From: Deltaproteobacteria bacterium
GTDB taxonomy: Bacteria > Desulfobacterota > Dissulfuribacteria > Dissulfuribacterales > QOAL01
Direction of reading: 5' to 3'
Assembly: GCA_015489365.1 (NCBI GenBank)
Contig: WFZW01000237.1
Coordinates: 2,211-26,210, forward strand
DNA: 24,000 bases
Shown here: in pieces, positions 769-23,869 of the stretch
Layout of the letters: the number at the start of each line of letters is the position of its first letter
Position numbering within the stretch: position 1 is the stretch's first letter
Translations under genes and position numbers: made by a program
Notes under the pieces: generated by a model
Seen by the model: the letters and a program-made list of their open reading frames with translations, nothing else
Database searches by the model: none
Told to the model about the DNA's origin: nothing

Positions 769-3700
769 TCATTTCTCAAGCCTTACCGCGCACACCTTGT
801 ATTCAGGGGTCATGGTCTTCGTATCCATGCCGGGGCTGGTAAGGAAATTCGTAAGGGTCTTCTGGTAATGGAAGGACATGAACACGGTCCCAGGCCTGCT
901 GCGCCTGGTCACCCTTGCACGGACCTTTACCACGGCCCTCCGTGAGACCACCTTCACCATGTCACCATCCATGATACCAAGTGCTTCGCAATCAACAGGG
1001 TGAACCTCTACATGTTCCTCCGGCGAGAGGATGTCAAAACCTTCGCACCTGGTCGTCATGGAGGCATTGTTGTAATGCTCAAGGCGCCTGCCGGTTATGA
1101 GGACCAGGGGAAAGTCCTTGTCTGCATCCTCCTCCGGCAGCATGTAGGACACTGGCACAAAATGCCCCTTGCCCCTTGGGAAGGTCTTGGTATGGAGAAG
1201 CGGCGTACCGTGTCTTTCTGAGGCCGATACCGGCCATACCTGCCCGATTTCATCCAGGTAACGGTAGGAAATGCCGGCATAGGCCGGGACCAACTGGGAT
1301 ATCTCTCCCATTATCTGCTCAGGATGGTTGTAGAACATGGGGTATCCCATGGCCTGGGACAAAAGGCACACTATCTCCCAATCTGCCTTTGAAGCACCAG
1401 GGGCCTCAAGGGCCTTGTTGACACGGCGCACCCGCCGTTCCCCGCTGGTAAAGGTCCCATCCTTTTCGTAAAAACTGGCTGCAGGAAGGATTACGTGGGC
1501 AAACTTCGCGGTCTCGATCATGAACATGTCTTGCAGTACCAAGAAATCAAGGGCCCTTAACGCCTTATGCACATGAGCAATGTTTGCCTGGGTCTGGGCA
1601 GGATCGTATCCCACGCAGTAGAGCCCCTTGAAGGTGCCTTCTATGGCCTTGGTATACATCTGGGGTTCCAGCAGGCCCTCGGTGGTCGGCAGGCTATCAA
1701 CCCCCCAGGCCCTTGCAAAGCTCTCCAGCACCTTCTCGTCATCGGTGGCCTGATACCCTGGATAGGTATATGGAAGGGTACCCATATCACATGCACCCTG
1801 AACGTTATTCTGCCCCCTTAAGGGATCGATACCATTATGAGGCCTACCTACATGACCGGTGGCAAGCACCAGATTCGCAAGGGCCATGACACCGGCTGTC
1901 CCACCCTTGTGCTCTGCAACGCCCAGGCCATAAAGTATAAGGGCATTGTTCGCCTGGGCATATTTTCTTGCCGCCTTTACTATATCCTCCGCTGGCACCC
2001 CGGTGATCTCAGCGGTCTTATCCGGCGTACAATCTGCGATATGTTTCCTGAGCGCATCGATATTTTCGGTTCGTGCGGAGATAAAGGCATCATCCTGCAA
2101 TCCTTCCTTGAAGATCACGTGGAGCATCCCGTTTAACAATGGGATGTTGGTACCTGGTTTGAGTCTGAGCCATATGCCTTCTGGTTGGGCCTCGGCAATG
2201 GCTGCCACATCGGTACGCCTGGGATCTATCACTATCAGGTCTGTTCCCTGCCTTACCGCCTCCTTTACCTTGAGCCCAACGATAGGGTGCGCCTCTGTTG
2301 TGTTCGAACCACATATGAGGAGGCAATCGGTACCGATGATCTGTTCAAATGGGGTGGTGGCTGCCCCGCTTCCCAGTGTGGCCAGCAGACCGCTGACCGA
2401 TGGAGCGTGTCAGACCCGGGCACAATTATCTATGTTATTGGTCCCCCATACCCCCCTTGCAAGCTTCTGTAGGAGATAATTCTCCTCATTGGTGCATCTA
2501 GATGATGCAAGTATGCCAAGGCTGTCCGCCCCATAGGCCTCCTTTATCCGCATGAAACGGGCTGCTGTGAAACGAAGGGCCTCGTCCCAATCCACCTCCC
2601 TGAAGGGTTCCTCTATGCTATCCCTGATGAGCGGCCTTGTAAGCCTATCCTTATGACGGTAAAAGGTATAGCCAAACCTGCCCTTTACGCACAGATTCCC
2701 CCAGTTTGGCGGACGTTTCCTGTCTGCCCTCACCTCTATCAAGGATCCATAGTTTACCAGCAGGTCCAGGCTGCAACCGGTTCCGCAATAGGTGCACACG
2801 CTCTTTACGGGCTTGACCTGGGAAGGAAGAAGCGGCACGATCACGGCCTTCTTGGAAAGTGCCCCGGTAGGACAGGCATCCACACATGCACCACACGATA
2901 CGCACTTTTCGTTCAAGCCTATGGAGACATCCTGCATGGTACCCGTCTTTGGATCCTCCTTTATCTCAAGAACCAGTGCCCCGTACCTGCAACTACGTTC
3001 ACACCTGGTGCACCCTATACACTTGTTGGGATCTACCTGAATGAAGGGATGGGAAGAGTCGATCTTGTATCTCATCCTTGAAGGCGCCTTGTTGGTCTTC
3101 ACCTTGTAATCTATGGAAAGCTCCCTATAGGTACATTTCGAAAGACCTGAGCAGCCGCATCTAAGGCACCTCTTCGCCTCCCTGACCGCCATCTCCTCGG
3201 AGAATCCAAGGGCGACCTCGTCAAAATCCTGGGTCCTTCTCTCAGGGGGGCGGCTTGGCATGATTTCGTTCAACCTGATGGAATAACCATCGAAGTTGTG
3301 CATGTCCACGTCTTCGAATCTCTTGCCCTTGGTAAAATTAAACCTGGGTTCGATCAGGCCCACCTTTTCCTTTTCCAGGAATTCATGGATAGATTCTGCG
3401 GCCCTGCGGCCTGCCGCAACCGCCTGTATAACCGTTCTGGAACCACTTACCGCATCCCCACCGGCAAAGATGCCAGACACGCTGGTCTTCATGGTACTTG
3501 GGTGGGCCTTAATGGTCTTTCTAGGGGTCACGGCAATGGAGGCCTCAAGCTCACCAAAACTCTGGAAGGTGATGTCGCCCTCCTGACCAAGGGCAGAGAT
3601 GACCGTATCCCCATCCCAAAACAATCTCGACCCTGGCATGGGTACAGGCAGCCTTATTCCCCGCTCATTGGGCTCGCCCAATATGGTCCTTGCCATCTCC

Positions 3701-9415: not shown

Positions 9416-9440
9416 CTTGATCCTCTCTGAGAAATATTTC

Positions 9441-9480
9441 TGTAAATTTTCACGCGGCCTGTATACCAACACCGCGCATC
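9441..9480 (-). promoter_or_regulatory. Degenerate fifth copy of the recurrent leader element, upstream of acsB
   Basis: Transcribed strand: GATGCGCGGTGTTGGTATACAGGCCGCGTGAAAATTTACA. It retains the inner stem (CGCGG / CCGCG) and the ..GGCCGCRTGAAA.TTT block seen in the four strong copies. It ends 25 nt before the acsB ATG. Confidence 0.35.
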
Positions 9481-9534
9481 TCTTTATATGGAAGGTAAAT
9501 ATACTTCCTTACCACAAAGTGACTAGCCTCCCGG

Positions 9535-14353: not shown

Positions 14354-14361
14354 TTTATATT

Positions 14362-14446
14362 CCCAAAACTTTCATGCGGCCCTTATCCCTGGTGCCGCAC
14401 CCTTGGTCATGAAAATACAGCCCTTACCCGAGATGTATTTTCACGG
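14362..14446 (-). promoter_or_regulatory. Recurrent leader element, copy 1 (upstream of the hdrC-like gene)
   Basis: Transcribed strand: CCGTGAAAATACATCTCGGGTAAGGGCTGTATTTTCATGACCAAGGGTGCGGCACCAGGGATAAGGGCCGCATGAAAGTTTTGGG. It fills most of the 112-nt gap between the mvhD(Sec) stop and the hdrC-like ATG. Confidence 0.6.
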
Positions 14447-14465
14447 TAAATAAACCGGACATGCC

Positions 14466-15272
14466 CTATGCCGTCATCAAGACCCAGCCGGCTTCATCCT
14501 GGCTGATCTTCTTCCTCCTGGAAAGGCCCTCCAGGATCTTTTGAATCTCGTCTCCGGATGCCCCGGTTGCCTCGGCAAGGTGACCTTCGTCCATGGCCCC
14601 CTCCTCCTTCAGCAGAATAAGCACCTCTTCGGTTATCCTCTGCTGTCTTATCGCGGGCAAAACCTTCTTTGCCACCCCTGCCTCTATAGCTTCTGGGGTG
14701 TAATCACCACCCTTGTGAAGGCCCTTTGACAGGGTGCCCAGTGAGGTGCGGGGCTTCCTGGCCGATGCAGCCCTGACTGCGGCCTTAAGACGCCTGTCGA
14801 TAACTGGCTTGGCCTCTTCGCCCTCACCGGTTCCAAGGGCACCCATCCCCTTGATTCTCTTTACATATCCCGTGATCAACTCGACAAATCGCGGGGCCTC
14901 GGCTGCAGACGCCCAGTCGAGAGACAGCCTCTCTGGCTCCACCCCTATATCCTTCAGGGTCTGACGGCAGGTCTCTGCAACTACCATGGCTTCGTAATTA
15001 CCAGACTGGTAATGACATTCACCCAAGTGTCACCCGCCTGTAAACACCCCGTCGGCACCACATCGGAAGGCCTCGAGAACAAACCGCACGTCTATGCGGC
15101 CGGTACACATCACCCTTATGACCCTGACGTTAGGTGGATACTGATACCTGGATACTCCTGCCGAATCAGCCGCTGCATAACAGCACCAGTGACAAAAAAA
15201 CCCCAATATATGTGGATCGAAGCCCTCCCGGGTCATTTCATTCTCCTTCAAGTTCGCTTTTTCTTGACTCAT
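14466..15272 (-). CDS. mvhD: MvhD/FlpD-family protein with selenocysteine (TGA at 15030-15032) and a ~125-aa C-terminal extension; 268 aa
   Basis: ORFs 15030..15272 and 14466..15026 are in frame, separated only by TGA-CAC. Readthrough gives ..[47 protein letters not shown].., the MvhD/VhuD G[C/U]HxGxCHY box. The start ATG lies 3 nt after the hdrA stop. Confidence 0.85.
14997..15013 (-). promoter_or_regulatory. Candidate SECIS hairpin for the mvhD UGA
   Basis: RNA: UGA CAC UUG GGU GAA UGU C-AUUACC-AGUCU-GGUAAU. This is a 6-7 bp stem with a GUC-containing loop, starting 16 nt after the UGA. Confidence 0.5.
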
Positions 15273-15275
15273 GGA

Positions 15276-18200
15276 CTATGCCTCGTCTTCACACTTCCCA
15301 CCAGAAAATGCATGGATCTGGGCAAGGATTTCCTGATCTGTAAAGCCCCCCATGGAAATCGCAAGGGTTGGACAGTGGGAGGCGCATATACCGCATCCCT
15401 TACATGAAGCGGTAATGGTTTGGGCCTTACGCCTCTTATTCACCTTGACCAGCCTTATGGCGTTAAACGGACATAGGCTTTCACAGATACCACAGCCTAT
15501 ACATGTTTTCTGATCCACCTGGGAGACTATGGGGGCCACTGCCACCTTGCCCTTGGCGAGGGGAATCACTGCCTTTGCTGCCGCGGCCTTGGCCTGTGCA
15601 ATGGACTCGTCCAGAGACTTTGGCCCGTGTGCGAGTCCACAAAGATAGAACCCATCCACTGCGACCTCCACCGGCCTGAGCTTCGCATGGGCCTCCAGGA
15701 AGAAGCCATCGGAGGTCAAGGGGGCCTTGATAACCTTGGCCAGTTCGACATTGTCCCCTGGGGCTATCCCGGTCGAAAGTACAACGAGGCTTGCCGGGAT
15801 CTCTATATCCTCGCCCATCAGGCGGTCAAAGCCCTTTACCGCTATCCCCCTGCCACGTCTTACGACCTCTGGCCGCCTATCAGGCATATAACGAAGGAAT
15901 ACGATACCCTTCTCTCTAGCCTCCCTGTAGAGGTCTTCGTGAAAACCATACGTGCGTATGTCTCGGAAAAATATGTATATATTGGTATCAGGGCTGTGTT
16001 CCTTGATCATCAAGGCATTTTTTATGGCCTGGGAGCAACAAAGCCTGCTGCAATGCTTGAGATCCTCCCCACGACTGCCCACGCACTGGATCATGACCAC
16101 GTTCCTGGCATTCTTGAGGAACGCCTTGCCACGTTTGAGCTTTTCTTCCAGTTCAAGCTGGGTCATGACCCGGTTGTTCTCACCATAGAGATATCCCGAA
16201 GGCTTATATTCCCTGGCCCCGGTTGCAAGGACTGCCACACCGTGATTTATCACCTTGGTCTTGCCCTTGGAGTTGATAGTAGTTGTAAAATTCCCAACGT
16301 AACCGGAGATGGATTCCACCTGGGACTCAAGCTGGACATGTATATTTGGATGATCCTTGACCTTCTTCTTCAAGCTATCCAACACGGATGACGCATCCTG
16401 CCCGTCCAGGGTCCATGCAAGCCTACTGAGATTTCCGCCAAGTTTCCTGCCCTTTTCCACGAGTACGCACCTGTACCCCTGGTCAGCAATACTTATGGCC
16501 GCTGTCATCCCCGCGGCCCCTCCACCTATAACCAGTGCATTGGGGGTGACATCCACGGTTGGCTGGGCAAGGGGCTCAAGGAGCCTTGCCTTGGCAACTG
16601 CCATGCGAACCAGGTCCTTCGATTTCTCGGTAGCGGCCTCAGGCTCCTGGGAATGTACCCAGGCACATTGATCCCTGATGTTCGCCATCTCTATGAGGGC
16701 AGGGTTCAACCCAATGGAACGCAAGGTCTCCTGGAACAGGGGTTCGTGGGTCCTGGGGGAACAGGCCGCGATAACTACCCTGTTGAGCCTGTTTTCCTTT
16801 ATCTTCTCCGCAATGCTCTTTAGGGCATCCTGTGAACAGGAATAGAGGGTATCTTCGTATAAGACCACCCCTGGAAGGGAACCGGCATAGTCCCTTACTG
16901 CCTTTACATCCACGGTGCCGGCTATGTTTACGCCACAGTGACAGACAAAGACCCCGATCCTGGGCTCTTCTGCCTCGATAGCCTTGTCCTCTTCGGGGTA
17001 TGTCACGCTTATGGTACAGGTATTGCGACTCTCGGCAAGAAGCTCACTGGCCATTGCCGCAACGCCTGAGGCCTGGGTAACACTTTCCGGGATATCCTTT
17101 GGCCCCTGGAATGCCCCTGCCACGTAAATACCCTCTCTTGTAGTGGCAAGTGGGGCACCTGCGGTGGTCTTACAGAAATCGTAATGATTAAGCTTGATGT
17201 CTGCCAATTCAGCAATCGACTGGGCATCCTCAGGTGAATCCAGCCCCACTGATAGGACTACCATGTCAAAAAGATCGGAGTGTGACTTGCCGTCATCTGT
17301 AGTCCAGGTCAGGGCCAGCATCCCGTCTACTTGTTCAACCCTTGGGACCCTTGCCCTGATTACGTGCAAACCATATTTTTCCTGGGCCCGCTGGCGTGCC
17401 TCGTCAAAGCCCTTTCCCTGGGTCCTGACGTCCATGAAGAAAAGCGAGATGTCCAGATCCGGTTCATGTTCCTTGGCAACCGAGGCCTCCTTGATGGCAT
17501 ACATACAACATACGGTGGAACAGTAGCCATTCCCGCATGTCTCATCCCTTGAGCCGATACATTGGAGAAAGGCAATTTTCCTGGGTGTCTTGTTATCAGA
17601 GGGACGTACTATGTGGCCCTCGGTTGGACCGGAGGCACAGGTCAGGCGCTCGAACTCGTAGCTGGTCACCACATCGGGATAGCGACCATAGCCGAATCTT
17701 TCAAGGACAGAGCTATCCACCCTGCCAAACCCGGGTGCAAGCACTACTGCCCCTACCTCGAGTGCATGCTCCTTAGGTTTTTGTGAAAAATCTATTGCCT
17801 TGGCCGTACAGGTCTGGGCACACAGGTTGCATGTTTCGTAGTTTACCCGCAAGCAGGCCTTGGCATCTATATAATAGCTCGATGGGATTGCCTGGGCATA
17901 ATCTATATGGGGTGCCCTCGTAACCTCCAGTCTTTCATTGTAGGTATCCACTACCGGCCTTGGACAATACATGGTGCACATACCGCAGGCAGTACACTTG
18001 TCTTCATCAATAAACCTTGGCTCCTGATGCACCCTTGCCACAAATTGTCCGGGTTTACCCTCAAGGGCCTCAAGCCTTGCGTTACTGAGTATTTCGATAT
18101 TTGGAGACCGACCGGCCTCAACCAACTTTGGCGCAAGGATTCACAAGGAACAATCGTTGGTAGGGAAGGTCTTATCCAACTGGGCCATGACCCCGCCCAC

Positions 18201-20407: not shown

Positions 20408-20423
20408 AACCAAACTTCTCCTT

Positions 20424-20504
20424 AAACTTTCATGCAGCCCGCATACCTGTGCCGCACCCCTGGACATGGAAACATCCCCGCTGAAGTGGTTGTTTCTTCA
20501 GGGG
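20424..20504 (-). promoter_or_regulatory. Recurrent leader element, copy 2 (upstream of CODH)
   Basis: Transcribed strand: CCCCTGAAGAAACAACCACTTCAGCGGGGATGTTTCCATGTCCAGGGGTGCGGCACAGGTATGCGGGCTGCATGAAAGTTT. It is followed directly by the AAGGAG RBS. Confidence 0.6.
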
Positions 20505-21424: not shown

Positions 21425-21444
21425 AATTCCTCCTGCTCATTGGG

Positions 21445-21537
21445 TTCCAAACCTTCATGCGGCCCTAGGCCTGGTGCCGCACCCTGGGCAAGGGATGGTA
21501 CATGGTTTCCTTGCAGGGATCGGTCGAACCGCCAAGG
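21445..21537 (-). promoter_or_regulatory. Recurrent leader element, copy 3 (upstream of folD)
   Basis: Transcribed strand: CCTTGGCGGTTCGACCGATCCCTGCAAGGAAACCATGTACCATCCCTTGCCCAGGGTGCGGCACCAGGCCTAGGGCCGCATGAAGGTTTGGAA. It ends 20 nt before the folD ATG. Confidence 0.6.
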
Positions 21538-21701
21538 ATCTTATATTCAAATTTGTAAAGCCAGTCCTTTTTTTGCAAACCCCAGGCCACCTAGGACCCG
21601 ATCCATGTTATACGTAACCTACATAAAACCCCTTGTAATCATTAAGCATTTATCGAGAAAACGATAATACTAATTTCACAAGCGTGCTACGCACAATTTG
21701 T

Positions 21702-21737
21702 GGGGAAAAAAACCCCGGCCCTGGTGTCTTTTTCCCC
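21702..21737 (-). terminator. Stem-loop with an embedded U7 tract just after the fhs stop (possible terminator or stability element)
   Basis: RNA: GGGGAAAAAGACACCAGGGCCGGGGUUUUUUUCCCC. GGGGAAAAA pairs with UUUUUCCCC. It starts 16 nt after the fhs stop. This is not a canonical GC-stem plus U-tail design, hence the low confidence. Confidence 0.35.
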
Positions 21738-21753
21738 AATCCTCATATTATTC

Positions 21754-23517
21754 CTAAAACAGGCCCTTAACCTTTCCGGTCGCTGTATCTACATCTATCC
21801 GCCTGTAGGCAGGATCGGAACCGGTCCCGGGCATGAGGCTTATAGCACCGGCCACAGGCACGACAAAACCGGCCCCCTTATACGTCAGGATGTCGCGTAC
21901 ATGGAGCTTCCAGCCCTTTGGAACCCCCTTCAAGTTAGGATTATCAGATAGGCTGAGGTGGGTCTTGACCATGCAGGTGCCAAGTTTTGAAAGTTCTGGA
22001 TCCTTCTCCATTGCCTCTGCCTTCTTTTCGGCCTCAGGGGTATAGACTACCCCGTCGCCACCATATACCTCCTTGGTTATAAGCTCGATACGCTGCCTGA
22101 GAGGCATGTCCAGATCATACAGGAACTTGAAGTTGTTTTCCTCGTTGCAGGCATCTACGACTGCATCGGCGAACTCGAGCGCTCCGTCACCACCCTTGAG
22201 CCAGTGCTCGGAAACGGCCACCCTGGCACCAGCATCCTCACATAGCCTTCTTACGGCCTCGATTTCGTTCTTGGTGTCGGTATAGAATGCATTGATACAA
22301 ACCACGGGGTTTATGCCTGCCTTTTTCACGGTCTCTATATGATGCAGCAGGTTTACAGTCCCCTTCTCGACCCACTCCACGTTTTCGCTGTTATATTCCT
22401 CAGGCATCGGGCGTCCTGGCCTTGGTATGGGCGCTCCGCCATGGCACTTGAGGGCCCTTATGGTGGCCACAACCACGGCACAGTTTGGTTTGAGCCCACT
22501 GAAGCGGCACTTAAGATTCCAGAATTTTTCAAACCCGATATCCGCCCCGAAGCCACTCTCGGTAACCAGGTAATCACCAAGCTTTAGCCCTATCTTGTCC
22601 GCGATCACAGAGGATTGGCCAATGGCGATATTTGCGAAGGGGCCTGCATGTATGAGACATGGCTGCCCCTCTATCGTCTGCATCAGGTTTGGATTTACCG
22701 CCTCTACCATCCAGGCGGTCATGGCGCCAGCTACCTCCAAGTCCTCCGTGGTGATCGGTTTACCCGTCCTGTCGTATGCTACTACGATCCTTCCTATACG
22801 CTCTCGCAAGTCTTTGAGATCATTTGCAATAGCTAAGATCGCCATTATCTCTGAGCTTACCGCTATATTGAAACCGCTCTGCATGGTAAGGCCATCCATG
22901 CGTCCACCGAGACCAATGGTAATATTTCTCAATGCCTGGGCACAAAAATCTATAATCCATTTGAATTCCACGCTCTTGGGATGGACGTTGAGCCTTTTGA
23001 GACCCCTTTGGGCAAGCTGTTCATCCGTATAGTTGGACTCGTGCTGCATCCTGGCGGTCAGGGCCACCATTCCCAAGTTATGGGCATTCATGATGGAGTT
23101 GATGTCGCCGGTGAGCCCAAGGGAAAATTTGGACAATGGAATCACCTGGGCCAACCCCCCGCCGGCAGCGCTACCCTTTATGTTAAACGTCGGCCCACCA
23201 GAAGGCTGGCGAAGGGCACCGATCACCTTTTTCCCCCTCTTGCCAAGGCCCTCCATGAGTCCAACGGCGCATGTGCTCTTTCCTTCCCCGAGCGGGGTTG
23301 GTGTAATGGCAGTGACGTCTATGTACTTGCCATTGGGCCTATCCTTTAGCCTTTCCAAGGCCTTGGCATAATCGATCTTCGCCACGTAATGGCCATAGGG
23401 CAGAAGCTCCTCCTTTTCCAGGGCAAGTTCTTCGCCGAGTTGATAAACGGTCTTCATATGCTGCTCTGCAGCCTCGGCTATCTCCCAGTCTTTCATTTTG
23501 GTTGGATCCAGGTTCAT
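21754..23517 (-). CDS. fhs: Formate--tetrahydrofolate ligase (formyl-THF synthetase)
   Basis: 587 aa, FTHFS throughout (..[12 protein letters not shown].., ..[15 protein letters not shown].., ..[13 protein letters not shown].., ..[13 protein letters not shown]..). RBS GAAGGAGGATTTGATCG-ATG. Confidence 0.96.
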
Positions 23518-23592
23518 CGATCAAATCCTCCTTCAAAATATTCTGGACGTACAGTGACGCCGGATTAAAATACCATTTCTAGGGGGTAGCTT

Positions 23593-23674
23593 CCAAACCT
23601 TCATGCAGCCCGTATCCCCGTGGCTGTCCCCTGAGCATGAAGATACCGCCTTTGCCCAGGGTGTATTTTCACGC
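23593..23674 (-). promoter_or_regulatory. Recurrent leader element, copy 4 (upstream of fhs)
   Basis: Transcribed strand: GCGTGAAAATACACCCTGGGCAAAGGCGGTATCTTCATGCTCAGGGGACAGCCACGGGGATACGGGCTGCATGAAGGTTTGG. It is bracketed by a perfect 9-bp inverted repeat (23579-23587 / 23706-23714). Confidence 0.6.
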
Positions 23675-23806
23675 TAAATTGTGCAACCCCATGGCATGAG
23701 ATACAACCCCCTAGAGAGAATGTATTTTCGAAACATACACCTTTGCCTATGCATCGGATGCACCGAAAGATGAAAAGAGCCCGGGCATGGCGGAATCTTC
23801 CGCCAA

Positions 23807-23820
23807 TGAATTCGAATTCA
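23807..23820. repeat. Perfect 14-bp palindrome TGAATTCGAATTCA in the fhs/tsaC divergent intergenic region
   Basis: Read directly from the sequence. GGCGGAATCTTCCGCC (23789-23804) and GCCCGGGC (23779-23786) palindromes lie just beside it. Confidence 0.6.
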
Positions 23821-23869
23821 GCATAGGTACCTGAACAACGCAGAACTTGTCAATCCCTGGAGGATCAAA

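What the first reader, a model, noticed from the sequence alone, without database searches (positions are those of the whole stretch)
23579..23739. fhs leader: copy 4 is enclosed by a perfect 9-bp long-range inverted repeat and preceded by an extra TGTATTTTC box
CTAGGGGGT (23579-23587) and ACCCCCTAG (23706-23714) are exact reverse complements 118 nt apart and bracket copy 4. In the RNA this gives a closing helix, 5' CUAGGGGGU...ACCCCCUAG 3'. The plus-strand 9-mer TGTATTTTC occurs at 14434, 23662 and 23721, and its complement occurs at 14411. All four lie in leader regions, which is unexpected for a single 9-mer in 24 kb. The 23721 copy sits in an imperfect palindrome, TGTATTTTCGAAACATACA. The repeated box could be a protein half-site or part of an extended RNA fold. 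The inverted repeat could alternatively be the ends of a small inserted repeat element.
Basis: seen in the sequence. Interest (0 to 1): 0.65.

Follow-up and report, generated by a model that had tools for sequence, protein, structure and literature searches.

The report
Dispersed hairpin repeat piled in fhs leader
The repeated box and "copy 4" upstream of the formate-tetrahydrofolate ligase gene belong to a roughly 90-base hairpin-forming repeat that is scattered between many unrelated genes of this bacterium, so they are not a switch specific to carbon-fixation genes; the 10-bp inverted repeat around copy 4 is a plausible extra RNA helix that clamps the stacked repeats.

Summary
The inverted repeat is exact and is 10 bp, not 9: TCTAGGGGGT at 23578-23587 and ACCCCCTAGA at 23706-23715. 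TGTATTTTC occurs 4 times against 0.14 expected.

The interpretation changes. All genes are on the minus strand. "Copy 4" and the boxes belong to a ~92-nt structured repeat: TTTAC|CGTGAAAATACA-loop-TGTATTTTCATG-CCAGGGG-GCGGC-loop-GCCGC-ATGAAAGTTTGG.

A covariance model built from the Wood-Ljungdahl (WL) copies found six more copies on the same contig, in both orientations. They sit next to clpB, a dGTPase-like gene, bamA and lpxD.

- Every exact TGTATTTTC/GAAAATACA lies in an arm of the repeat's 12-bp hairpin.
- The family was seen in only two sister MAGs. Copy 4, copy 1 and five non-WL copies are missing from the sister.
- More distant relatives have short, empty spacers at these sites.
- There is no Rfam match.

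The fhs leader holds a pile-up: an older truncated copy, which owns the "extra" box at 23721, with the intact copy 4 nested after TTTAG.

The 10-bp inverted repeat is not the repeat's terminus, and repeats of this size are common by chance here. However, the sister MAG keeps the pairing through two double compensatory changes without having copy 4. It is probably a real leader RNA helix.

The finding is ordinary in kind: a new member of the REP/ERIC/MITE-like repeats. Old core-only copies next to WL ribosome-binding sites look constrained.

The parts
23706..23715 (-). 5' arm (in RNA sense) of the long-range helix, UCUAGGGGGU. It lies in the loop of the older copy's hairpin.
   Evidence: Exact 10-bp complement of 23578-23587. 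Pair probabilities 0.88-1.0 in the full-leader fold. The sister MAG has UCCCGGGG at the same place.
23578..23587 (-). 3' arm (in RNA sense) of the long-range helix, ACCCCCUAGA. It starts 5 nt after the 3' end (GUUUGG) of copy 4.
   Evidence: The sister MAG has UUCCGGGA here, which keeps the pairing.
23589..23682 (-). Copy 4, a full-length repeat.
- 5' flank TTTAG.
- Hairpin H 5' arm CGUGAAAAUACA at 23673..23662 (this is the box at 23662).
- H 3' arm GGUAUCUUCAUG at 23647..23636.
- P2 CAGCC/GGCUG at 23626..23622 and 23610..23606.
- P1 3' strand CAUGAAGGU at 23605..23597.
- 3' end GUUUGG at 23598..23593.
   Evidence: Model R2 hit at L001 9836-9929, 85 bits, E 1.8e-21. Alignment A2. About 59-66 nt of it are absent from the sister MAG's fhs leader.
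23675..23733 (-). Older, truncated copy 'a'.
- H 5' arm GAAAAUACA at 23729..23721.
- Decayed H 3' arm UGUAUCUC at 23705..23698.
- Core 5' half AUGCCAUGGGGUUGCACAA.
- Then UUUAG, after which copy 4 begins.
   Evidence: Local alignment to the repeat consensus: score 41 against 15.6 +/- 3 in shuffles, 0 of 2000 reach it. Orthologous to the single complete copy in the sister leader, L004 9837-9930 (R2, 62 bits).
23721..23739 (.). Imperfect palindrome TGTATTTTCGAAACATACA. It is the 5' arm of copy a's hairpin abutting an upstream UGUAUGUUUC that resembles a hairpin 3' arm.
   Evidence: Kept in the sister MAG as GUAUAUUUCGAAAAUACA.
23562..23575 (-). UGGUAUUUUAAUCC. It can pair with the box at 23729..23721 as an outer helix around the 10-bp helix. 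It may be the hairpin 3' arm of a decayed third copy ('o', about 23523-23597) that ends at the fhs ribosome-binding site.
   Evidence: The outer helix appears in the MFE and centroid folds. The alignment of 'o' to the consensus is weak: 63 of 2000 shuffles reach it in L001 and 117 of 2000 in L004. This part is tentative.
14360..14454 (-). Copy 1, a full-length repeat in the mvhD-Fer4 spacer. Its hairpin arms are the boxes at 14434-14442 and 14411-14419.
   Evidence: R2 hit, 101 bits, E 6e-26. Fold z-score -2.9. Absent from the sister MAG at the orthologous site, with shared flanks.
20414..20475 (-). Copy 2, core only (P1 3' strand and P2). It ends directly at the native AAGGAGAAG ribosome-binding site of cooS.
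   Evidence: R1 hit, 74 bits. About 93% identical to its orthologue in the sister MAG, while the upstream spacer is roughly 60-65% identical by eye. Relatives have 15-30-nt spacers here.
21439..21500 (-). Copy 3, core only, upstream of folD.
   Evidence: R1 hit, 64 bits. An orthologue is present in the sister MAG. Absent in L005 and L006.
9438..9527 (-). Degenerate fifth copy (core) upstream of acsB.
   Evidence: Weak R2 hit at L017 2706-2795, E 0.056. Sequence. The sister orthologue L119 5063-5154 scores E 4e-5 and keeps P2 with a U-A to C-G compensation.
23807..23853 (-). Putative fhs promoter. The -35 TTGACA is at 23853..23848 and the -10 TACCTA at about 23829..23824. A perfect palindrome TGAATTCGAATTCA follows at 23820..23807. 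This places the transcription start near 23817, upstream of both inverted-repeat arms.
   Evidence: GGATTGACAA is conserved upstream of fhs in L001, L002, L003, L004 and L006. The start site is inferred, not measured.

Best explanation
The features in the fhs leader are pieces of a lineage-specific, structured, dispersed intergenic repeat of about 92 nt.

**Anatomy of the repeat (RNA sense)**
- 5' flank TTTAC.
- Hairpin H: CGUGAAAAUACA and UGUAUUUUCAUG, 12 bp, capped by a 3-bp stem and a GGGUAA loop.
- Spacer CCAGGGG.
- Hairpin P2: GCGGC, a 13-nt loop, GCCGC.
- AUGAAAGUUUGG. This can pair back onto the 3' arm of H to form helix P1, so H and P1 exclude each other.

**How the finding maps onto it**
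- The TGTATTTTC/GAAAATACA boxes are the arms of H.
- The leader carries a pile-up of copies. An older truncated copy 'a' owns the box at 23721. An intact copy 4 sits inside it, right after a TTTAG.
- There may also be a decayed copy 'o' next to the ribosome-binding site.

**The 10-bp inverted repeat**
- It is not part of the repeat consensus.
- It pairs the hairpin loop of copy 'a' with the sequence just after the 3' end of copy 4.
- In the roughly 300-nt fhs mRNA leader it most likely forms a helix. Together with P1 and P2, that helix zips the stacked repeats into one closed rod. It competes with hairpin H.
- The likely role is to hold the inserted repeats in a fixed fold and keep them from interfering with the ribosome-binding region. 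It is unlikely to sense a ligand.

**Shown and inferred**
- Shown: the repeat family, its dispersal, its presence and absence between genomes, hairpin covariation, and retention of the inverted-repeat complementarity in the sister MAG.
- Inferred: transcription through the region, formation of the helix in vivo, any effect on fhs expression, and the way the repeat spreads.
For: **Dispersal**
- Model R1, built only from WL copies, finds six further copies on the same contig at E 1e-5 to 5e-9. They lie beside clpB, a dGTPase-like gene, bamA and lpxD, on both strands.
- The full-length model R2 scores nine copies at 58-102 bits.

**The boxes are hairpin arms**
- This is visible in alignment A2 and the flank listing.
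- All 9 exact 9-mers in L001 + L017 + L004 lie inside repeat copies.

**Structure**
- H is 88% paired, with C-G to U-A changes in three copies. No shuffle out of 500 reaches the observed covariation score.
- P1 is 98% paired. Its U-A to C-G changes occur at a column that mismatches in H.
- G.U pairs occur only on this strand.

**Gain and loss**
- The sister MAG (coding DNA 86-88% identical) lacks copy 1, the extra part of copy 4, and five of the six non-WL copies.
- L002, L003, L005 and L006 have none. Their spacers are 15-30 nt where this genome has 112-129 nt.
- Strict pattern scans of the GTDB genome set and of JGI metagenomes found only the sister MAG plus chance hits.

**Long-range helix**
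- It is in the MFE and centroid folds of both leaders.
- Pair probabilities are 0.88-1.0, and forbidding the helix costs about 10 kcal/mol here.
- Two pairs changed on both sides between the two MAGs, and two more changed between G-C and G.U.

**Transcription**
- A conserved -35 block upstream places both arms inside the transcript.
- No Rfam family matches, even at E up to 10.
Against: - A 9-10-bp inverted repeat within 150 nt is not unusual in this window: 25 observed against 16 +/- 5 in shuffles.
- Only two genomes are available, so the compensatory changes rest on a single comparison.
- In the sister's full leader the helix has only about 0.2 probability, because a third CCCGGG motif upstream competes for it.
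- The loop motif of the repeat (CCUGGG) is nearly self-complementary. Some loop-to-loop pairing between tandem copies therefore comes for free.
- Covariation in the core over 14 copies is modest: 52 of 500 shuffles reach the observed score.
- No terminal inverted repeats, no target-site duplication and no transposase were found, so the mode of spread is unknown.
- Ten of about fourteen copies face the start of the next gene. The old core-only copies are as conserved as coding DNA. Both points leave room for a function beyond that of a selfish repeat.
Confidence: 0.72

Rival explanations
1. Exapted regulatory module. The repeat is, or has become, a cis-acting RNA regulator. The two exclusive folds (hairpin H or helix P1) and the P2 hairpin, placed 10-40 nt before start codons, would control translation or mRNA stability of WL genes and some others. 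The trigger could be an RNA-binding protein, a small RNA or temperature. In this reading the long-range helix is the fhs-specific version that locks the P1 state.
For: - The old core-only copies before cooS and folD are about 93% and 88-90% identical between the two MAGs. That is at or above the coding level (86-88%), while the adjacent spacer looks roughly 50-65% identical by eye.
- The acsB copy keeps P2 through a U-A to C-G change between orthologues.
- The one shared copy in antisense orientation has decayed in the sister MAG.
- About 10 of 14 copies point toward the next start codon.
- The H/P1 overlap is kept across copies.
Against: - Four copies are antisense to, or 3' of, their neighbouring genes.
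- The flanked genes share no pathway.
- Copies come and go between sister genomes.
- The ribosome-binding site is never inside the conserved pairings.
- The family exists in only two MAGs.
- Conservation next to start codons is expected anyway, and gene conversion among copies could mimic constraint.
Confidence: 0.18
2. A riboswitch-like or C1-specific leader RNA, as the first reader leaned toward. Four copies of a ligand-sensing element would coordinate fhs, folD, cooS and the met/acs operon, with the 9-bp helix as its closing stem.
For: - Four to five copies lie in sense orientation upstream of WL genes.
- Copies 1 and 4 fold better than shuffles, with z-scores of -2.9 and -3.5.
Against: - The same element flanks clpB, a dGTPase-like gene, bamA and lpxD, in both orientations.
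- Copies 1 and 4 are missing from the sister MAG.
- Relatives with the same WL cluster lack it entirely.
- No Rfam match, including the ZTP and THF families.
- The closing helix exists only at fhs.
Confidence: 0.03
3. DNA-level reading. TGTATTTTC would be a transcription-factor half-site, and the 10-bp inverted repeat a protein-binding palindrome or a cruciform.
For: - The 9-mer is strongly over-represented.
- It occurs as inverted pairs 14-16 bp apart.
Against: - Every occurrence is inside a repeat copy.
- The arms covary (GAAAAUAC/GUAUUUUC to GAAAAUAU/AUAUUUUC), which keeps pairing rather than sequence.
- G.U pairs make the structure specific to one strand.
- The boxes have no fixed position relative to promoters, and some lie inside operons.
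- A better operator candidate, TGAATTCGAATTCA, sits at the promoter itself.
Confidence: 0.04
4. The 10-bp inverted repeat is a chance or by-product complementarity with no role. It would arise from decay of two near-palindromic CCUGGG loop motifs in tandem copies.
For: - Inverted repeats of this size are at chance frequency in the window.
- The consensus loop CCUGGG can pair with itself.
- The sister arms are both CCCGGG-like, and a third such motif competes for them there.
Against: - In this genome the arms have diverged into CUAGGGGG and CCCCCUAG. These are no longer self-complementary, yet they match each other perfectly over 10 bp. That requires about six coordinated differences from the sister's arms.
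Confidence: 0.25

Closest known systems
REP/BIME and ERIC (IRU) elements of enterobacteria
   Same: These are short (about 35-130 nt), multi-copy repeats that fold into imperfect hairpins. They lie in intergenic and intercistronic spacers in either orientation and are co-transcribed with flanking genes. Their presence varies between close relatives. (My own knowledge; reviewed in PMC10969869 and PMC2229807.)
   Different: There is no sequence similarity. The GTAG head typical of REPs is absent. This element has two different hairpins plus a third segment that competes for one arm, rather than a single long palindrome. No RAYT transposase could be looked for.
Bacterial MITEs, for example Chunjie of Geobacter uraniireducens, Correia elements and RUP
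   Same: These are small non-coding repeats, mostly intergenic. [quoted passage not shown] Truncated copies that resemble REPs are common.
   Different: The defining terminal inverted repeats and target-site duplications were looked for and not found. The element is shorter than most MITEs.
Non-autonomous derivatives of IS200/IS605-type elements (palindrome-associated transposable elements)
   Same: - No terminal inverted repeats and no duplication.
- Strand-specific hairpins containing G.T pairs.
- A conserved short sequence (TTAC or TTTAC) only at the 5' junction. It also appears at the two 'empty' sites in the sister MAG.

The TTAC target preference of IS608 is recalled from memory. It is a lead, not a test.
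   Different: The two hairpins are unlike each other, whereas such elements usually carry similar left-end and right-end hairpins. The hairpin is not at the expected distance from the 5' junction. No TnpA gene was seen in 43 kb.
ZTP (pfl) and THF riboswitches, the known RNA regulators upstream of fhs and folD
   Same: Location in the 5' leaders of fhs and folD, and a structured RNA.
   Different: No Rfam hit, even at E up to 10. The element also lies next to unrelated genes and in antisense orientation. It is confined to two MAGs.

Membership tests
Dispersed structured intergenic repeat (REP/ERIC-like, broad sense) | Many copies per genome, at unrelated loci and in both orientations | tested here: met
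   There are 8 full-length copies, 2 core-only copies and 2-4 partial or degenerate copies in about 43 kb of one contig, on both strands.
Dispersed structured intergenic repeat (REP/ERIC-like, broad sense) | Confined to intergenic or intercistronic DNA, with conserved hairpin potential | tested here: met
   All copies lie in spacers or at gene boundaries. H is 88% paired, P1 98% and P2 80%, each with compensatory changes.
Dispersed structured intergenic repeat (REP/ERIC-like, broad sense) | Presence or absence differs between close relatives | tested here: met
   The sister MAG lacks copy 1, the extra part of copy 4 and 5 of 6 non-WL copies. More distant relatives have none.
REP/REPIN mobilised by a RAYT transposase | Conserved GTAG-type head 5' of the palindrome, and a RAYT gene in the genome | not testable with these tools
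   No GTAG head is visible in consensus A2. The rest of the MAG could not be searched for a RAYT gene. None lies in the 43 kb seen.
MITE | Terminal inverted repeats | tested here: not met
   The 5' end TTTACCGTGAAAATAC and the reverse complement of the 3' end, CCAAACTTTCATGCGG, do not match.
MITE | Target-site duplication flanking each copy | tested here: not met
   No consistent direct repeat of 4 nt or more at the boundaries of nine copies. Only TTT is found at both ends, and it cannot be told apart from element sequence.
IS200/IS605-derived non-autonomous element | Insertion 3' of a fixed tetra- or pentanucleotide, without duplication; subterminal hairpins; TnpA supplied in trans | tested here: inconclusive
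   The 5' flank is TTAC in 4 of 6 intact copies and TTGC or TTAG in the other two. TAC and TTTAAC are present at two sister 'empty' sites, but the spacers there are otherwise replaced. TnpA could not be searched for.
Riboswitch (ZTP, THF-I, THF-II or a new class) | Match to a curated model, or conserved association with one functional gene set across taxa | tested here: not met
   No Rfam hit. The flanked genes are unrelated. The element is found in only two MAGs.
Transcription-factor operator | A sequence-conserved site at a fixed position relative to promoters of a regulon | tested here: not met
   The boxes covary rather than stay fixed. They occur only inside the repeat, some of them inside operons and 3' of genes.

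The most novel reading that the evidence does not exclude
A mobile, two-state RNA module has been captured as a shared post-transcriptional control element of the Wood-Ljungdahl cluster.

- The module has a hairpin H that competes with helix P1, plus the P2 hairpin.
- Core copies directly before the ribosome-binding sites of fhs, folD, cooS and acsB are held under selection in two species, while other copies decay.
- In the fhs leader, two tandem copies have co-evolved a 10-bp loop-to-flank helix that fixes one of the two states.

This would be an observed case of a regulon being wired by a spreading repeat.
Probability: 0.15. Interest if true: 0.6.

Novelty: new member of a known kind. Interest (0 to 1): 0.3.

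Why it matters
- It removes a tempting false lead. A four-copy "C1 leader motif" with a closing helix and a repeated box looks like a new riboswitch or regulon signal. It is in fact a lineage-specific dispersed repeat.
- It shows that a repeat family can fake both regulon-like enrichment and covariation inside a single window. A look 10-20 kb further along the contig and at one sister genome resolves it.
- If the conserved core copies next to the WL ribosome-binding sites prove functional, the locus would be a small, tractable example of a repeat recruited into the control of carbon-fixation genes in an uncultured vent Desulfobacterota lineage.

Tried and rejected
- **Rfam.** Gathering mode on the whole window, and E up to 10 on all four leaders, gave only noise such as miRNA, snoRNA and CRISPR models.
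- **Leader peptide.** Some copies hold 7-19-codon ORFs starting at the CAUG. One-nucleotide indels between copies break the frame, and the L004 folD copy has no start codon (reading). Rejected.
- **Sigma-54 promoter** (GGCAC-N5-TTGC) in the core. The spacing and the -12 element do not fit in most copies (reading). Rejected.
- **11-bp DNA palindrome GGTGCGGCACC** in the core. It is not kept in copy 4 or in the sister copies. Rejected.
- **Strict core pattern** in GTDB genomes and JGI metagenomes. It returned only the sister MAG plus chance hits. The pattern was too strict to find the non-WL copies, so it gave the wrong impression that the element is specific to WL genes.
- **Hairpin pattern in viral contigs.** It gave 100 AT-rich chance hits, and none scored as a true match with R2.
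- **Terminal inverted repeats and target-site duplications.** None found.
- **Core covariation over the first 7 copies.** Not significant.
- **Exact insertion boundaries from 'empty' sites.** The spacers are too diverged or have been replaced.
- **Decayed copies 'o' and 'z'** in the leader. Their support is only weak.

Full report
**Setting**

The window is a Wood-Ljungdahl (WL) cluster, and every gene is on the minus strand. The order is:
- fhs (23517..21754), folD and cooS;
- hdrA-like and mvhD genes;
- a ferredoxin gene, a second mvhD, and metV;
- a metF-acsD fusion, acsB, acsC and acsE;
- a formate dehydrogenase.

RNA sense is therefore the reverse complement of the window. The window's own contig was recovered as two loci. 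L001 follows window = 33518 - x, and L017 follows window = 12233 - x. Upstream of fhs lies a divergent yciO-like gene, so the fhs leader region is 23518-23869.

**Checking the observation**

- The inverted repeat is exact and is 10 bp long: TCTAGGGGGT at 23578-23587 and ACCCCCTAGA at 23706-23715.
- TGTATTTTC occurs four times against 0.14 expected.
- The palindrome-like 19-mer is at 23721.
- Taken alone, the inverted repeat is not remarkable. Perfect 9-mer inverted repeats within 150 nt number 25 in the window and 16 +/- 5 in shuffles.

**What the four copies are**

The repeat finder confirms four related segments upstream of the ferredoxin gene, cooS, folD and fhs. No Rfam family matches at the curated thresholds or at E up to 10.

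I first treated these copies as a WL-specific leader RNA. Relatives were fetched through Fhs homologues.
- A sister MAG, GCA_024275145.1 (Fhs 97% identical, coding DNA 86-88% identical), has copies before fhs, folD and cooS.
- Relatives whose Fhs is 91-95% identical (L002, L003, L005, L006) have none. Their spacers are 15-30 nt where this genome has 112-129 nt.
- Strict pattern scans of the GTDB genome set and of JGI metagenomes returned only the sister MAG plus chance hits.

**The turning point**

A covariance model built from the seven WL copies (A1, R1) was run without filters over the rest of the contig. It found six more copies at E 1e-5 to 5e-9:
- immediately upstream of clpB;
- immediately upstream of a dGTPase-like HD gene;
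- at the 3' end of that HD gene;
- near the 5' end of bamA;
- just after the bamA stop codon;
- upstream of lpxD.

Three of these are antisense to their neighbouring genes.

With flanks added, the family consensus is TTTAC|CGTGAAAATACAtcctGGGTAAgggcTGTATTTTCATGtCCAGGGGTGCGGCACCAAGGTACGGGCCGCATGAAAGTTTGG. A full-length model (R2) scores nine copies at 58-102 bits and the core-only copies at 36-41 bits. It also picks up degenerate copies before acsB (window 9527..9438) and elsewhere.

The "WL motif" is therefore a dispersed repeat. The strict search pattern had hidden this, because the WL copies resemble each other more than they resemble the other copies.

**The boxes**

GAAAAUACA and UGUAUUUUC are the two arms of the repeat's hairpin H, a 12-bp stem formed by CGUGAAAAUACA and UGUAUUUUCAUG.
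- The boxes at 14434 and 14411 are the arms of copy 1.
- The box at 23662 is the 5' arm of copy 4. Its 3' arm is GGUAUCUUC.
- The box at 23721 is the 5' arm of an older copy.
- All nine exact 9-mers in L001 + L017 + L004 lie inside repeat copies.
- The arms covary. The clpB and HD copies read GAAAAUAU/AUAUUUUC.

Pair counts on the nine full-length copies (alignment A2):

| Helix | Cells paired | Compensatory changes |
|---|---|---|
| H | 88% | C-G to U-A in three copies |
| P1 (UAUUUUCAU with AUGAAAG) | 98% | U-A to C-G, at a column that mismatches in H |
| P2 | 80% | G-C to A-U |

For the structure containing H and P2, none of 500 shuffles reaches the observed covariation score.

P1 uses the 3' arm of H, so H and P1 exclude each other. 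Over 14 core copies the pairing is 90%, but covariation is only modest: 52 of 500 shuffles reach the observed score. G.U pairs occur on this strand only.

**The fhs leader**

The sister leader has one complete copy: GAAAATACA-tctctCCCGGGGc-TGTATTTTCATGCC...GGCATGAAAGTTTGGAAG-agacTTCCGGGaatGGTATTCT.

The window has the 5' two-thirds of that copy ('a', 23733..23675). Its alignment to the consensus is reached by 0 of 2000 shuffles. Then comes UUUAG, followed by the intact copy 4 (23682..23589). About 59-66 nt here have no counterpart in the sister. Whether this reflects an insertion here or a deletion in the sister cannot be decided without an outgroup.

The segment between copy 4 and the ribosome-binding site aligns weakly and co-linearly to the consensus: 63 of 2000 shuffles reach the score in L001 and 117 of 2000 in L004. 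It may be a third, decayed copy ('o').

The partner arm of copy 'a' has decayed to UGUAUCUC.

**The 10-bp inverted repeat**

- Its 5' arm lies in the hairpin loop of copy 'a'.
- Its 3' arm starts 5 nt after the GUUUGG end of copy 4.
- No other copy has such arms, so it is not the terminus of the repeat.
- The sister has UCCCGGGG and UUCCGGGA at the same two places and no copy 4.
- Relative to the window, two pairs changed on both sides (U-A and A-U here, C-G and C-G there), and two more changed between G-C and G.U.
- The helix is in the MFE and centroid folds of both leaders.
- In the full leader of this genome its pair probabilities are 0.88-1.0, and forbidding it costs about 10 kcal/mol.
- In the sister's full leader the probability is only about 0.2, because another CCCGGG upstream competes.
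- The consensus loop CCUGGG is nearly self-complementary, so tandem copies start with some complementarity between their loops. Here the arms have diverged into sequences that match only each other.

A conserved GGATTGACAA block in five lineages marks the likely -35 at 23853..23848. This puts the start near 23817 and both arms inside the transcript. The start site is inferred.

**Gain, loss and constraint**

- In the sister MAG the clpB-to-lpxD region has no intact copy. It has only a decayed remnant of the copy at the 3' end of the HD gene.
- The bamA-lpxD spacer is 34 nt there and 328 nt here.
- One copy sits in the bamA leader, where the sister has 14 unrelated nt.
- Copy 1 is absent from the sister, and the flanks are shared.
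- Pairwise identity among copies is 42-88%.
- The old core-only copies before cooS and folD are about 93% and 88-90% identical between the MAGs, while the adjacent spacer looks roughly 50-65% identical by eye.
- The acsB copy keeps P2 through a compensatory change.

This leaves open that some copies have acquired a role.

**Classification**

- No terminal inverted repeats and no target-site duplications were found, so this is not a canonical MITE.
- The general behaviour matches REP/ERIC-type structured repeats and MITE-like elements that sit inside operons (reviews PMC10969869 and PMC2229807).
- The recurrent TTAC/TTTAC at the 5' junction, the absence of duplications and the strand-specific hairpins recall IS200/IS605-type elements. 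That comparison rests on memory and could not be tested.
- No copy was found in viral contigs.

**Verdict**

The boxes and copy 4 are explained by a dispersed repeat. The inverted repeat is a plausible leader-specific RNA helix, supported by one comparative data point. It is neither a riboswitch stem nor a transposon end.

Noticed in passing
window 23807-23820 (minus strand 23820..23807): A perfect 14-bp palindrome, TGAATTCGAATTCA, lies right after the putative fhs promoter (-35 TTGACA at 23853..23848). It is identical in the sister MAG. L002 has TGAATC-CC-GATTCA and L006 has TTGAA-N6-TTCAA at the same position. It is a better candidate for a protein operator of fhs than the TGTATTTTC boxes.
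   Followed up: partly
window 2410-2412, 15030-15032, about 18140: There are in-frame TGA codons inside the formate dehydrogenase gene (..RV-TGA-HAPS), mvhD, and the N-terminal part of the hdrA-like gene (CSL-TGA-ILAPK). These are probably selenocysteine codons, which would explain why each gene appears split into two ORFs.
   Followed up: partly
window 9438-9527 (minus strand): A degenerate fifth copy of the repeat core lies upstream of acsB. The sister MAG (L119 4997-5176) has two tandem degenerate copies there. The P2 hairpin is kept between orthologues through a U-A to C-G change.
   Followed up: partly
L017 14162-14255 (-) and 14358-14451 (+); L017 19674-19766 (-) and 19867-19957 (+); L017 15643-15735 (-) and about 15881-15935 (+): Three times, two copies sit back to back (5' ends facing each other) about 100-170 nt apart. 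The clpB and HD pair has identical cores. The spacer between that pair is native DNA shared with the sister MAG, so these are not simply one larger element. The recurring arrangement is unexplained.
   Followed up: no
L119 1-159 and L004 contig end; sister MAG GCA_024275145.1: In the sister MAG the WL cluster is split over at least two contigs (JAJRZR010000095 ends inside cooS, and JAJRZR010000094 starts 159 nt before the ferredoxin gene). The hdrA-mvhD part between them was not seen.
   Followed up: no
window 23690-23713 (minus strand), L004 9880-9905: Both fhs leaders contain a 7-codon ORF starting at the CAUG of the old copy (MPWGCTI* here, MPMGLHK* in the sister), read in different frames over the same nucleotides. 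This is probably coincidence.
   Followed up: no
window 21701-21738: A terminator-like hairpin, GGGGAAAAA...UUUUUCCCC, follows the fhs stop codon and is conserved in the sister MAG. fhs and folD are therefore probably separate transcription units, with a conserved promoter-like block (GGGGTTTGCAAA...TTTACAAA) before copy 3.
   Followed up: no
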